Source: Mytilus californianus
Lineage: Eukaryota
NCBI RefSeq assembly: GCF_021869535.1
Contig: NW_026262712.1
Location: 31,124,001-31,188,000 of the forward strand
DNA: 64,000 bases
Reading direction: 5' to 3'
Below, piece after piece: positions 6,001 through 29,879 of the stretch; within the stretch, counting starts at the first letter, position 1, and each line of letters opens with the position of its first letter. The position numbers are program-made.

Positions 6001-9000
6001 AGAGGGTCCGCTGTCATAGAAAGACAATTCAAAGTTAACGTTGGAGGTGAGTCTTACATTAAACAATAGCAGTCTCTATAAGTATTTACCTATAAAACGT
6101 TTAAACCGCAGCATTGGTATGCACCTGTCTAAAGTGAGGAGCCTGTTGTTCAGTGGTTGCCGTTGGTTGGTGCTGTTCATAAATTTTTACAATTTGTACA
6201 AATTATACCGTTGGTTTCCCTCATTTAATTGTTTAACAATAGTTATTTTGGTGCACTGTCATAGCTTGCTGTTCGTTGTGAGTCAATGCTCTGTGTTGAA
6301 GGCCGTACTTTGACATATGATTGCTTATTGTTGACACAATGTGATTTGGATGGACAGTTGTCTTATTGGCACTCATACCACATCTTCTTATTCATAATTG
6401 AAAAGTCTTATCAAGTGATAGGCGACATGTTTTAGCGGAAAGGTAATTGACTGTTATCTAACTTTACACATCACCAAATTCTTAAACCGTTGATTCATCA
6501 ATCATAATAGAGAGACGGAATATATAAAAGGAATAATAGCATAATTTGAATAGAAAATGACAATGTCATGCAAAAGAAAGAATACCGACAACACAACAAA
6601 CTGCAGTCTACCAAACATAACGTATACAACCAAAGACTTTAATAACCACATCAAAACCACAAGGGTTGATATTGAGTGCTCCATATTGGGATAAGCATAT
6701 CATGCTCTATTTTCGGTTACCGTCGTAGTGCTTATGTAAGTACAAACCTTGTTATAAGTGTTATGCATACAACTGTGATTTATATATGTGTTGATCAAAA
6801 CGCATCACTCAGATGTGTTTCTTCATAAAACGATGGTTTAAATACGTTATCTGACTTGCCAATGCAGGTGTTTGAATAAAGCTATGTTTAATGTCTCCAT
6901 ATGAATATAAATGCAACTCAATGAAAACCATACTTCCCTGCTCCCGAAGCGCTTTTTTATTTATCTTCATCAAGACGTTCATAGTCAGAAAATTGAAAGA
7001 TAAGTATGTATAAAAAACTTAATATTTGATGAACTATATAACCACAATAGATCACAAATAAAAAGTCAAATGCATCTAAAGTCAACTTTGATGAAGATGT
7101 AATGTAAATAGAGTTCGTCAATTTGAAGCCTAGAGTATTACCATTATTCAAAATTCTACGGTCGAATCATTTTTCAGAATTCTACATTTAATTCCTTTAT
7201 CAAATATCTAAGGTAGTATATTCAATTACAATATTTCTATTTGATACGAAAATGTGAACCATGCATAAGAGAGATTAATGTTGAAAAAGGTAAAATCACA
7301 AAATACTAAACTCCGAGGAAAATTCAAAAAGGAAAGTCCCTCATCAAATGGCAAAATCAAAAGTTCAAACACTTAGTGTGAAGGCCTTTATTAACACAAA
7401 GACAGATCAGGAAAATGAAATCAAAATTACAAATTAATTCATGGGATCACATCTATCCTACTAAACTTGATATGTCAGATTAAACAAATTTACTTACGTC
7501 AGCTTCGCATCGAGGCTTGAATCTAGTAATTTTCGATCAAGGATTGTGTTTTGATAAGATCTTAATTTTGCAATAAAAGAGAGTTATAGATTTATATGTT
7601 GTTGATCTTTCAAATCATCTTACGACTAGAACAATATTCTGAAAATTTGATCCGCGGGATACATCATTTGAAGTTCCCCGTTCTGTTATTTATAAGCAGG
7701 CTATAACATTGAATTTTAATAGAATATTCTAGACGTGAAGTATAGCTTTACGTAACATCTGCATTGTGATTTTAATTTAATTTATAACAATATTCTTTTT
7801 TGGTTCGCCAGACCAATCTTTTGTCTGCAAACGACTTATATGTGGCATTAAATCCAAAACCGAGTCTGAAAATCATAAACCATCAAAATGTCGAGAAATT
7901 GCGAAAAAGACAGCATAGACGTATATCAATATCCTTACGCCATTCTTACGTGCAATTTATCAGTTCATGACAATTTAAAGTAATTATTCATATTGCAAAT
8001 TTGCTCATCTGTTTTTCTCTTCAAAAAGGTTTCAAGTATTTCCAAGAAATGTACGGTTTACGGAGTTGAAACACCAATACCTTCCAACGAAAAGCAATTT
8101 ATCTATTATCAAATGATGTCAAAGTACTTAACATTTGTCATGTCATTTTCAGAATCTATATTGACTCCGATTAGACTGGAATCATACACTCAGCGTGGAG
8201 AAGGATTGCTCCGAATTCGCTTAAAGAACAAATGGACTTATTTTCATTACAATACTTTCAGTTCAGTAAAGGCCTCTATTGTGTGTCGGTCTCTTGGATA
8301 TCCGTATGTATACAATTTGCTTAAATAACCAGCTACTTTAATACAATTTATATACATTATTTTGATTATTTAAGTATATTAATCTCCTTCTATGATTCAA
8401 TGAATAATGAAGAAAAAGAGTAGTATGTAGGTGTCATGAATATTCATTCTTACAACTTAGTTACGTTTGTGGTTCAAGTATCACAGTAAATCTTGGTAAA
8501 AACACATCCATGCTTTCTATCTAATAATTGCGAACGGCTTTTTTTTATGTCTACAAAAATGTGGCGCTTGAATTCTGACAGTTTTGCACAAAAAACCATC
8601 GGGAACAAAATTCCACCAGCAGTGTATTACCGAAAGGTCTGAATTTAACAATATGATTCTGAATAAGACTGAAACATTTCTCGACGTTCGTAAAGTGTAG
8701 GACTCTACCTCAATATTTCGATAATCTTAAAGTATCACAATTTTGTATTGATACATTATCCACAATCTAAACAGTATCGGAGTTTATAAGCAGTCTAGAG
8801 GGTGTATGAGTTTGTTTTGACAATTTAAAGTGTGTTTGAGTTCTTGTTGACACATCTTCAGCCATCAAGTGTGTATTCGTTTTCCTCCACACCTTAATGT
8901 TATACCTAGTTTATTAAAAGTTTTGAATACAAAAACTAAAAGAATATTATGCACGTACGATCCAACGCTGATCCATTTAGTCTTTTATCTTTCTTATTGT

Positions 9001-27000: not shown

Positions 27001-29879
27001 ACATTTTTACCTATTACGCATGTCTGTTTGTTTTGTTCACACATCGTTGTCAATATCAAAGAATTTGATGCGTAAGAGGTTTAGCTAGCTTTTAAGCCAG
27101 ATTTTATCAACCATTTTCTACATAAGAAAATGCCTGTACCCAAGTCAGGAATACTTCAGCTGTTATGCATTCGTTTGATGTGATTTAGATTTTGATTTTG
27201 TAATTTGATCAAGGACTTTCCGTTATGAATTTTCCTCGGAGTTCAGTATTTTTGTGATTTTACTTTTTAGGTCACATGATAAGCTGTAAAAAAATACCAC
27301 AGGTCATTAGGTATATATCAAGCAAAACACTTGGAACAAATAACAAATAACTGATTCGGTTTTGAACATATCTCTAGTTGATACACAAATGAAAGTTTTA
27401 TAAAAAAAGTTTATTAAAATTAATCGAGCTAAATTAGTTTTAGTCACGTTGTTTGGTATCACTGAAACCGGCTGAACGCCAATCGATTTATTATCTATTC
27501 TGCTTAGATGTCGAGTTACAAAGCAAAATATTGCAAATTTCGTAGTGATTTGCAAAATGTAATTATGAACTGAAGTTGCTTCAACTAAGGTATGTATGGA
27601 GGCCTCAGTGATTGTGCTTCCCTGATTTAGTGAAAAGATGTCATTAAATGACTTTGCTTTGAGATTCAAATTTAAATCATGATTAATTTCTTTTAGAACT
27701 CAAAATGACTGTCTCTTTAAAAAGTGATGGAAAAGTTAATGTCCATCGATTAGGAGCAACATGGCAAATATGTGCCTCTGCATGGAATTCTTATCAGGAA
27801 CCTCTATGGGATGATGTAGGTGCAACTGCTGTCTGTCGTATGCTCAATAATAGGTAAAATTATTAGACGTTTCAGAATTTAATGCATTCTGGGTAATATG
27901 CTCCTCTGCAAGGAATCTATATGAGATGCTGTAGGTGCAAATGCTGTCTGTCGTATGCTCAATATATATATATATTAGGTAAATTGATTAGACGTTTCAG
28001 AATCTAATGCAATCTGGGTAATATTTTCAAAGCGGACACCAAAAGGTTGTGATTGGTTTAAATTGGTAATAAACAATAGAATATCAACCAATGACGTTAC
28101 GATTCTTTCTTTTTTGGTTTACGAACATTGAGATTACCAATTGTCCTTTGGATTCTGAAATCGTGAATTAAAACAATTTCATTAATAAAAATTCTTTAAA
28201 AAATTAACATTTGAAAGTTGTGTAATGTTGAGATCATAAAATACAATGTTTAAGCGAATTTTACGCTGAAGTTGCAAGTGTACCAGCAAAAAATCCCTAT
28301 CTTATATTATAATAATACTATGAAGAAATGGTTTTCTGTTACACCACTCTCCTAAGTTGAGGACAGGATTGAAAGCTCGTAATGCAATTAACCATCGCCA
28401 CAAACGTAGTGTGCCAACCCACGCTAGGAGCCTTACACTCATTAGTTTTCGTTGGATTGCAATAGTTGATTTTGTTTTGCTTTTAGTATAAACCAGTTAC
28501 CTCATTCTCTAAATATCAAACAATTTTGATTCACGCAGCATTTCAATTTTATAAGAGGGAAGGAATGCCTTTTACCCTATGTCTTCAAACAGTCATTTTC
28601 GGCTACCATCATAATTAGACGATTCTTTTATCGTCAAAACGAAAAATATAAATGTTATCGTCATGTGCAAAAAAATTAGCATTAACGTCGTTTAGCAACA
28701 TGTGTTACCGTTATTCGTCATTACAACCTTGTCGTAGTACGGCTTACTCTTTATTAAGTTTCCGATCATAATGATTGTCGAAGTTTGTACACATTTTTGT
28801 CTGTTTGTCTATGTTGGAAAGTTATCGTATTGTCAGCTGTACTACATTCCTTATTTCATTATTATCAAAATACTACCAGGCCATAAATGGAAGATCTGAA
28901 TGTTCTTTAGTGTCTTTGACAATCCTTTACAATATCAAGTAATTAAGAAGTAAATCACTCCGCTTGGAACATAGATGAAACTTTATAAAACTATTCAAAT
29001 CCATTGATTGATTCTCTCAATTTGACACGTTTGCTTATGACAGCTTTTGCGACCTCAATTTGGCGTAAGATTAATGGGTGATGTAGAATAAAATTTCATC
29101 GCAGACTTGTTCCGCAGCAGGATATGTAAAATCAACTCGGGTTTTGTCGTGGCGTTATCAGATGATATTCAACGTATGAGTTTTGAAATTTCCTGGTATC
29201 TTTCGCATCTTTGATAATGATAAAAAGTAAAAGAACACAAATACCGAACTCCAATGAAATTCAAATCAGAAAGTCCTAGCTTATCAAATGACAAAATCAA
29301 AAGCTCAAACACATCAAACAAATTGAGAACAGTTGAAAAGCCAAATCAGTTATGAAGTGAAACAGCATTGAAATTCAAAATGAAAAAAAATAATTATTCT
29401 GACGTTTTACTAGAAGTAAATTTTAAGAAAAAAATCTTATGTTATTATTACCAGAAAGGAAAGAAAAAACGGAGTGTTATCATAACCTTATGAGCAAAGC
29501 ATCTATGAGTTTGACTGTCCCTCTGGTATCTTTCGTCCCTCTTTTAGACACATCATTGGTATTTTTATCAGATTGATTTCATTTATGTAAATAACGGGAT
29601 GAAATATTCTACTAGTTTCAGCAATGCAACTGCAACACACATACCATATGATTATAAAGGATTTCCAGCAACAGCAAATAACATACAACAACTTTACTGT
29701 CCGAGGGGTGCTTCACATCTTGGAGATTGTTTCTACGGGGGTTACATAAGTTATAAAGAATCAAAGTTAGCATCTCCATGGCAACCAGGTGCTTGCAGGG
29801 AGGAAGATTCATACTACACGTTAACACGACGAGGAGGTGTTCGATGCAACATATAAACATTCTACATACTTATTCAATG

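What the first reader, a model, noticed from the sequence alone, without database searches (positions are those of the whole stretch)
8153..29856. Disulfide covariation across the six SRCR domains: three 4-Cys domains and one relocated cysteine
Established: group A SRCRs have 6 Cys paired as C2-C7, C3-C8 and C5-C6 (8-Cys numbering). Seen: SRCR2, 3 and 5 lack both C2 (WGFVN, WGTVN, WLKVT) and C7, leaving 4 Cys. SRCR4 and 6 keep both (WGYVC/LSCEMH; WQIC/GACREE). SRCR1 lacks C2 but keeps C7 and gains a Cys in the GPIWL-equivalent strand (PYCIYG). Every domain therefore has an even Cys count (6,4,4,6,4,6). Inference: selection acts on a folded protein, and SRCR1 may have moved the C7 partner to a neighbouring strand.
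Basis: partly seen in the sequence, partly recalled or inferred. Interest (0 to 1): 0.65.

Follow-up and report, generated by a model that had tools for sequence, protein, structure and literature searches.

The report
Mussel SRCR protein, one shifted disulfide
A California-mussel gene for a secreted protein with six cysteine-rich (SRCR) modules has dropped one standard disulfide bridge in three modules and seems to have re-anchored it in a fourth, a tidy but modest example of paired cysteines evolving together.

Summary
Window 8153-29856 holds 12 of the 15 exons of a Mytilus californianus gene (public record 'egg peptide speract receptor-like', 875 aa). It encodes a signal peptide, one Ig domain and six SRCR domains, with no membrane anchor. 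The window is not human. Cysteine counts per SRCR domain are 6,4,4,6,4,6.

Joint loss of C2 and C7 is already described for CD163-family domains. It is also common in my survey of 999 named SRCR domains outside this family: 940 have both cysteines, 40 have neither, and only 19 are mismatched.

The new part is SRCR1. C2 is gone, C7 is kept, and a Cys sits exactly at the Trp of the GPIW strand. A mussel paralogue keeps the canonical state (C2 plus Trp). The same swap occurs independently in four group-B domains of characiphysan fishes. All 10 of 10 domains with this Cys lack C2 and keep C7. 8 of the 10 also have a C6-C7 loop two residues shorter than canonical, and none of the 10 has the loop Trp.

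This supports a relocated disulfide, but it is not shown directly. The AlphaFold tool returned no coordinates, so no S-S distance could be measured. One paralogue has an odd seventh Cys. Interest is modest.

The parts
1618..1714 (+). Exon 1: start codon and hydrophobic N-terminus (signal-peptide-like).
   Evidence: tblastn of P0001; junction solution.
3299..3420 (+). Exon 2: first half of the Ig domain (Cys62).
   Evidence: Pfam Ig_3, V-set and I-set match P0001 residues 48-147.
5821..6046 (+). Exon 3: second half of the Ig domain (Cys129).
8153..8303 (+). Exon 4, SRCR1a. The C2-equivalent residue is His180 (codon 8245-8247). C3 is Cys193 (8284-8286).
9321..9538 (+). Exon 5, SRCR1b. The extra Cys231 sits at the Trp position of the GPIW strand (9415-9417). 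C5 is at 9433-9435, C6 at 9463-9465, C7 (Cys255) at 9487-9489 and C8 at 9517-9519.
10266..10425 (+). Exon 6, SRCR2a (WGFVN, no C2; C3 at 10406-10408).
11204..11406 (+). Exon 7, SRCR2b (C5, C6 and C8 only; no C7).
11671..11821 (+). Exon 8, SRCR3a (WGTVN, no C2).
13150..13340 (+). Exon 9, SRCR3b (C5, C6 and C8 only).
19732..19882 (+). Exon 10, SRCR4a (WGYVC: C2 at 19824-19826, C3 at 19863-19865).
20940..21169 (+). Exon 11, SRCR4b (C5, C6, C7 at 21115-21117, C8).
22599..22740 (+). Exon 12, SRCR5a (WLKVT, no C2).
26216..26403 (+). Exon 13, SRCR5b (C5, C6 and C8 only).
   Evidence: There was no Pfam hit for this exon alone.
27697..27853 (+). Exon 14, SRCR6a (WQIC: C2 at 27771-27773, C3 at 27834-27836).
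29616..29856 (+). Exon 15, SRCR6b (C5, C6, C7 at 29794-29796, C8 at 29845-29847) and the TAA stop at 29854-29856. No membrane-spanning exon follows in the model.
   Evidence: C7 and C8 were assigned by motif (PWQPGAC, GGVRC), because the HMM alignment stops near column 88.

Best explanation
The region is the SRCR-coding part of a real, spliced Mytilus californianus gene. The product is a secreted protein: signal peptide, one Ig domain and six group-A-type SRCR domains. Each SRCR domain is encoded by two exons.

Its cysteine pattern comes from disulfides evolving as pairs.
- The C2-C7 bridge was dropped as a unit in SRCR2, SRCR3 and SRCR5. This is shown by comparison with paralogues that still have it in SRCR2 and SRCR5.
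- It is kept in SRCR4 and SRCR6.
- In SRCR1 the C2 end of the bridge was replaced by a Cys at the Trp position of the GPIW strand (Cys231). This Cys most likely bonds C7 (Cys255). The bond is an inference.
- The rewiring came with a C6-C7 loop two residues shorter than canonical and without its Trp. That change would bring C7 towards the new partner (inferred).

The ligand and biological role were not tested. A soluble recognition or adhesion protein is a guess from the domain make-up.
For: Gene model:
- 100% match to public protein P0001.
- 14 of 14 junctions are unique GT-AG, with a regular phase pattern.
- 2628 nt gives 875 codons plus stop.
- Pfam SRCR has E 1.5e-65 and there are Ig hits.
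- No 19-residue window has hydropathy above 1.6; the maximum is 1.25.

Pairwise loss:
- SRCR2 has C2 plus three Cys in the C7 region in paralogues B and C and in Pinctada. All four are absent in this gene and in paralogue A.
- SRCR5 has C2 and C7 in paralogue C and neither here nor in A.
- The clade of this gene plus A has support 94/99.
- Across 999 domains outside the family the counts are C2+C7+ 940, C2+C7- 2, C2-C7+ 17 and C2-C7- 40. Fisher p is 2e-55, not corrected for relatedness.
- Coupling analysis ranks 29-95 second of 5151 pairs.

Relocation:
- Cys at column 69 occurs in 10 of 1044 domains, and all 10 are C2-/C7+.
- Six of these are mussel SRCR1 domains, from this gene and paralogues A and B. 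Four are group-B domains in three characiphysan fishes.
- Paralogue C SRCR1 is canonical, with C2 and Trp69.
- 8 of the 10 have C6-to-next-Cys spacing of 8, against 22 of 969 other domains. 0 of the 10 have a Trp in that loop, against 585 of 969.
- Every other independent C2-/C7+ group also carries a compensating new Cys. Ruminant WC1/CD163-like domains have it at column 90. Squamate domains have it at column 97.
- Cysteines are kept 30 of 30 in P0161, P0160 and P0003.
- The SRCR1 model has pLDDT 83.3 and pTM 0.76 and is SRCR-like by Foldseek.
Against: - No S-S distance was measured. The structure tool returns no coordinates, and none appear on the script machine.
- Direct couplings 69-95 and 29-69 rank 1315 and 1180 of 5151. 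Column 69 couples best with columns 91, 68, 81, 66 and 90. So in canonical domains the Trp may pack with the loop Trp rather than against the C2-C7 bridge, and C7 would have to move.
- Paralogue B SRCR1 has 7 Cys (QCSC), in both P0157 and P0006. One Cys there is therefore free or bonded elsewhere.
- P0005 lacks C3 in SRCR5. P0006 lacks C6 in SRCR3, while P0157 and P0155 keep it. These are single records, and could be errors or alleles.
- The tree does not resolve B against C, so a single origin within mussels is not established.
- The fish cases probably count as one origin, so there are only two independent events.
- The whole-protein model is poor (pLDDT 61.3, alignment of 10 sequences).
Confidence: 0.65

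Rival explanations
1. Cys231 and Cys255 of SRCR1 do not bond each other. One or both are free, or form bridges to another domain or another chain, for example for multimerisation or covalent capture of a partner.
For: There is a precedent. Human AIM/CD5L has an extra Cys between C4 and C5 that bonds IgM (PMC11525585, passages read). Paralogue B SRCR1 has an odd count of 7 Cys. No distance was measured.
Against: In AIM the extra Cys comes on top of an intact C2-C7 pair, giving an odd count. Here all 10 of 10 column-69 Cys domains lack C2 and keep C7. The count stays even in this gene and paralogue A, and the same loop shortening recurs in fish.
Confidence: 0.17
2. SRCR1 has a reshuffled connectivity. 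Cys231 bonds C5 or C6, and C7 takes the partner that is left.
For: Cys231 is only six residues from C5. The C6-C7 loop is altered. No direct coupling links column 69 with column 95.
Against: C5-C6 spacing is the canonical 10 in all 10 domains. The 75-85 coupling ranks fifth overall. The simplest reading keeps the three conserved pairs.
Confidence: 0.1
3. The pattern has no meaning: it reflects chance, a decaying gene or a faulty gene model.
For: Within this one protein the C2/C7 table is not significant (p 0.2). Three b exons gave no Pfam hit when scanned alone.
Against: The reading frames are intact, the splice sites are canonical and the frame is unbroken. The orthologue is 88% identical and keeps 30 of 30 Cys. 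Paralogues are 63-64% identical and also keep 30 of 30.
Confidence: 0.03

Closest known systems
Group A SRCR domains (MARCO, SCARA1/MSR1, SCARA5, Mac-2BP)
   Same: Same fold: Foldseek TM-scores normalised to the target are 0.61-0.71. No C1 or C4. Two exons per domain. SRCR4 and SRCR6 have the six canonical Cys.
   Different: Four of the six domains depart from the six-Cys rule. No domain has Asp at both of the usually acidic columns 30 and 31, and columns 99/100 are not Glu-Asp in any domain where they align. The architecture is Ig plus six SRCR domains with no collagen region or membrane anchor.
CD163-family group B domains lacking C2 and C7 (bovine CD163A SRCR8, CD163c-alpha SRCR5)
   Same: C2 and C7 are lost together, leaving one bridge fewer (PMC2906472, passages read).
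   Different: Those are group B domains that keep C1-C4 (6 Cys left). Here the loss leaves 4 Cys, and it affects three of six domains.
Characiphysan fish group B SRCR domains (P0194, P0215, P0232)
   Same: C2 is absent, Cys sits at the Trp of GPIW six residues before C5, and C7 is kept. The C6-C7 loop is shortened to 8 in 3 of the 4 domains and has no Trp.
   Different: These are vertebrate group B domains with C1-C4 (8 Cys). They are unrelated in architecture and appear to be an independent origin.
AIM/CD5L extra cysteine
   Same: An extra Cys between C4 and C5 of an SRCR domain.
   Different: In AIM it is unpaired within the domain and bonds IgM, and C2-C7 is intact.
Sea-urchin speract receptor and neurotrypsin/PRSS12 (names given to this gene and its orthologues by automatic annotation)
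   Same: Repeated SRCR domains.
   Different: No membrane-spanning segment. No kringle or protease domain among the Pfam hits. That the speract receptor has four SRCR domains and a membrane anchor is recalled, not tested.

Membership tests
SRCR superfamily (Pfam PF00530) | Sequence match to the SRCR profile | tested here: met
   P0001 gives E 1.5e-65 with 5 stretches. Exon-wise, 6 of 6 a-exon frames match (E 8.7e-9 to 0.011; 2 of them are above the 26.1-bit cut-off). 3 of 6 b-exon frames match weakly.
SRCR superfamily | SRCR fold (beta-sheet cradling one helix) | tested here: met
   The SRCR1 model has pLDDT 83.3. Its best PDB matches are SRCR domains of SCARA1, neurotrypsin and MARCO (probability 1.00, TM-score normalised to the target 0.70-0.71). 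The other five domains appear only in a low-confidence whole-protein model, which shows the same order of secondary-structure elements.
Group A SRCR | No C1-C4 pair | tested here: met
   The Cys lists of the six P0001 domains include neither column 13 nor column 47.
Group A SRCR | Six Cys: C2-C7, C3-C8, C5-C6 | tested here: not met
   Only SRCR4 and SRCR6 have the six canonical positions. SRCR2, SRCR3 and SRCR5 have four. SRCR1 has six, but one of them is at column 69 instead of C2. The domains are group-A-derived variants.
Group A SRCR | Domain encoded by two exons (criterion quoted in PMC3100851, passage read) | tested here: met
   All six domains are split after the LG(F/Y)x motif and share the same intron phases.
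Group B SRCR | Eight Cys including C1-C4; single exon per domain | tested here: not met
Speract receptor (the name in the public record) | Membrane-anchored receptor (feature recalled); orthology to the sea-urchin gene | tested here: not met
   There is no hydrophobic segment after SRCR6, and the protein ends two residues after C8. Orthology was not tested. The name is automatic.
Neurotrypsin/PRSS12 (the name of the orthologues) | Kringle and trypsin-like protease domains | tested here: not met
   Neither is among the Pfam hits at E up to 0.01.

The most novel reading that the evidence does not exclude
A Cys at the GPIW-Trp position bonded to C7 is a recurrent alternative SRCR disulfide topology. 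It would have arisen at least twice, in mytilid Ig-SRCR proteins and in characiphysan fish group B proteins. Each time it came with loss of C2 and of the loop Trp, and in 8 of the 10 domains also with a two-residue shortening of the C6-C7 loop. That would define a connectivity class beside groups A and B. It would also show that the C7 loop of the SRCR fold can be re-docked onto the other side of strand b4.
Probability: 0.5. Interest if true: 0.4.

Novelty: new variant of a known kind. Interest (0 to 1): 0.3.

Why it matters
SRCR domains are classed by cysteine pattern, and that pattern is used to annotate large immune-gene expansions in invertebrates.

This locus shows, within one gene family, three things: loss of a bridge as a unit, a four-Cys SRCR form, and a likely re-anchoring of a bridge that also evolved in fish.

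If the re-anchored bond is real, it gives a natural test case for how far the SRCR scaffold tolerates rewiring. It is also a caution against reading 'six Cys' as 'group A connectivity'.

It does not open a large question. The joint loss of C2 and C7 is already in print.

Tried and rejected
- S-S distance. The SRCR1 model comes without coordinates, and nothing is written to the script machine.
- Coupling analysis as a stand-in. It recovers the four known bridges at ranks 1, 2, 5 and 6. It gives no direct 69-95 or 29-69 coupling. It only shows that strand b4 has coupled pairs with both strand b3 and the segment 90-98.
- Whole-protein model. Mean pLDDT was 61.3, too poor to compare domains beyond secondary structure.
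- Pfam on single exons. 1b, 5b and 6b gave nothing.
- Second copy in the window. None was found.
- The 150 unnamed representatives. Only P0005, P0006, P0010, P0037 and P0061 were fetched by id, because they are collinear with the mussel protein. Eight others were used only because named them.
- The 120 rows.
- SRCR1 outside Mytilus. None was returned. The Pinctada relatives lack this domain.
- Literature. Five searches found no description of a Cys at the GPIW-Trp position.
- Not run: complex prediction, and scans of genome contigs (prokaryotes only).
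Full report
**What the region is**

The window has 31% G+C and no N. On the + strand, between 8153 and 29856, there are twelve open frames with SRCR-like translations, two per domain.

I scanned them one by one against Pfam. All 6 first-half frames match PF00530 (E 8.7e-9 to 0.011). 3 of the 6 second-half frames match weakly, and 1b, 5b and 6b give nothing. Candidate splice sites show one repeating phase pattern.

Exon 1b alone (9322-9537) retrieved a public Mytilus californianus protein, 'egg peptide speract receptor-like' (P0001, 875 aa), at 100% identity. 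It also retrieved close relatives in M. edulis and M. coruscus. So the window is mussel DNA, not human.

From then on I used that stored public record instead of a join of my own.
- tblastn of P0001 on the window gives 15 collinear blocks and no second copy.
- Each of the 14 junctions has exactly one GT-AG solution that fits the protein.
- The exons sum to 2628 nt, which is 875 codons plus TAA.
They encode a hydrophobic N-terminus and an Ig domain.
- No membrane-spanning segment is predicted, and the protein ends two residues after the last Cys.

**The observation**

P0001 has 6, 4, 4, 6, 4 and 6 Cys in SRCR1 to SRCR6. All of these codons are in the window.

I built a profile from 1139 SRCR domains of 111 named, non-human proteins. 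These were 98 of the 120 rows listed plus 13 family members. In the profile register, the canonical cysteines sit at columns 13 (C1), 29 (C2), 42 (C3), 47 (C4), 75 (C5), 85 (C6), 95 (C7) and 105 (C8). The Trp of GPIW is at column 69.

- No domain of P0001 has C1 or C4.
- SRCR2, SRCR3 and SRCR5 lack C2 and C7.
- SRCR4 and SRCR6 have both. For SRCR6 the last two cysteines were assigned by motif, because the profile alignment ends early there.
- SRCR1 lacks C2, keeps C7, and has Cys231 exactly on column 69.

**Is it more than chance?**

Not within this protein alone. Six domains give a 2/0/1/3 table, with p 0.2 by hand. Even counts are also the rule for SRCR domains in general (923 of 999 outside the family).

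The comparison with relatives is what carries weight. Outside the family, 940 domains have both C2 and C7, 40 have neither, 17 have only C7 and 2 have only C2. Fisher p is 2e-55, uncorrected for relatedness. A mean-field coupling analysis on 1049 domains ranks the four known bridges 1st, 2nd, 5th and 6th of 5151 pairs.

[quoted passage not shown] So the co-loss itself is known.

**The gene family**

Mytilus has several paralogues with the same Ig plus SRCR layout.
- Paralogue A: P0161, P0160, P0005.
- Paralogue B: P0157, P0155, and the unnamed P0006.
- Paralogue C: P0220 (full length) and P0010.
- Pinctada has relatives that lack SRCR1.

A tree joins this gene with A (support 94/99). It leaves the order of B and C open, and Pinctada sits on a long branch.

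Paralogue C has 6, 8, 4, 6, 6 and 6 Cys. SRCR2 carries C2 plus three Cys around C7 in B, C and Pinctada, and none of these four in this gene or A. SRCR5 carries C2 and C7 in C, and neither in this gene or A. So two more bridge losses happened on the branch to this gene and A, each without leaving an orphan Cys.

Between this gene and P0161, 30 of 30 SRCR cysteines are kept and none is added, while other residues are 61% identical.

**SRCR1**

Paralogue C has the canonical state: C2 in WGAIC, Trp in NPFWMNNAHC, and C7. This gene, A and B have no C2 and have Cys in place of that Trp.

In the survey, Cys at column 69 occurs in 10 of 1044 full-length domains, and all 10 are C2-/C7+. Six are mussel SRCR1 domains. 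Four are group B domains in Brachyhypopomus, Prochilodus and Metynnis, all Characiphysae. These fish domains keep C1-C4 and total 8 Cys.

Both lineages share further changes. The spacing from C6 to the next Cys is 8 in 8 of the 10, against 22 of 969 other domains; the usual spacing of 10 is seen in 819 of 969. None of the 10 has a Trp in that loop, against 585 of 969.

The other independent C2-/C7+ groups also carry a compensating Cys. Ruminant WC1/CD163-like domains have it at column 90. Squamate domains have it at column 97. One sea-star domain without C7 has a new Cys at column 23.

I read this as good indirect evidence that Cys231 bonds Cys255.

**What speaks against it, or is missing**

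- The SRCR1 model (11-sequence alignment, pLDDT 83.3, pTM 0.76) resembles solved SRCR domains. But the tool gives no coordinates, so the distance test was not done.
- The coupling analysis does not link column 69 with 95 or 29 (ranks 1315 and 1180). Column 69 couples best with columns 91, 68, 81, 66 and 90.
- The top 200 pairs include 10 between strand b3 and strand b4, 9 between b4 and segment 90-98, and 8 between b3 and segment 90-98. The three elements therefore seem to be neighbours, but the side-chain geometry is open.
- Paralogue B has a seventh Cys in SRCR1.
- P0005 lacks C3 in SRCR5. P0006 lacks C6 in SRCR3, while its named relatives keep it.
- The M. edulis model P0002 has garbled stretches, which account for its deviations.
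- The whole-protein model is of low confidence (pLDDT 61.3). It only shows the same order of strands and helix in all six domains.

**Comparison and novelty**

These are group-A-derived SRCR domains: no C1-C4 and two exons per domain. Only two of the six meet the six-Cys definition.

The automatic names (speract receptor, neurotrypsin/PRSS12, M130-like) are not supported by the architecture.

Five literature searches found no report of a Cys at the GPIW-Trp position. Supplements are closed. The supplementary tables of PMC10855680, which sort invertebrate SRCR motifs, may bear on this and were not seen. For that paper, and for PMC2906472, PMC3100851 and PMC11525585, I read only the passages returned by 'find'.

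**What stayed unchecked**

- No mytilid outside Mytilus was retrieved.
- Expression and ligand are unknown.

**Verdict**

One modestly new element is a likely relocated disulfide with a convergent counterpart in fish.

Noticed in passing
window 36693-39317 (- strand): An uninterrupted 875-codon frame with leucine-rich repeats (LRR_8, E 1.7e-26) and a TIR domain (E 8e-22). It looks like an intronless Toll-like receptor gene. It lies tail to tail with the SRCR gene, about 7 kb away.
   Followed up: partly
window 18223-18930 (- strand), inside the 6.4-kb intron between exons 9 and 10: A 236-codon open frame that resembles, from memory, the C-terminal part of a LINE ORF2. It has no Pfam hit at E up to 0.001. 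Further fragments of this kind lie at 46268-46824 (-).
   Followed up: partly
window 27796-28024: A 115-bp tandem duplication (1.9 copies, 83% match) covers the 3' end of exon 14 (SRCR6a) and the start of the intron. tblastn also shows the extra partial copy. The M. coruscus model P0037 translates a similar doubled piece.
   Followed up: partly
window 29840-30272 and 54515-55248: A 33-bp tandem array (13 copies) begins within the last 17 nt of the coding sequence and runs into the 3' flank. A separate 114-bp array has 6.4 copies.
   Followed up: no
P0157, P0155, P0010, P0220, P0159 and P0061 (SRCR2 of paralogues B and C and of Pinctada): An eight-Cys SRCR form that is not group B. It has C2, C3, C5, C6 and C8 plus three Cys clustered around C7 (patterns like C-x2-4-C-x-C or CCxC), and no C1 or C4.
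   Followed up: partly
P0157 residues 292-403 and P0006 (SRCR1 of paralogue B): A seventh Cys two residues after C6 (QCSC) gives an odd count. It may be free or used between domains or chains.
   Followed up: no
P0204, P0205, P0190, P0241 (ruminants); P0268, P0255, P0249, P0256, P0253 (squamates); P0063 (sea star): Other compensated changes of the C2-C7 bridge. C2 is lost with a new Cys at column 90 (ruminants) or column 97 (squamates). In the sea star, C7 is lost with a new Cys at column 23.
   Followed up: partly
P0001, all six SRCR domains (profile columns 30, 31, 99, 100): The usually acidic positions are Asp at column 30 in 762 of 1139 domains, Asp at column 31 in 631, Glu at column 99 in 552 and Asp at column 100 in 756. 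No domain of P0001 has Asp at both columns 30 and 31. Columns 99/100 are not Glu-Asp in any of the five domains where they align; the SRCR6 alignment stops before them. That these positions form the cation site of SRCR domains is recalled. If so, calcium-dependent ligand binding may be lost.
   Followed up: partly
P0002 (M. edulis model): Two stretches read like frame-shifted exons. They are in SRCR3a and at the SRCR6a/6b junction, and they explain its missing and extra Cys.
   Followed up: no
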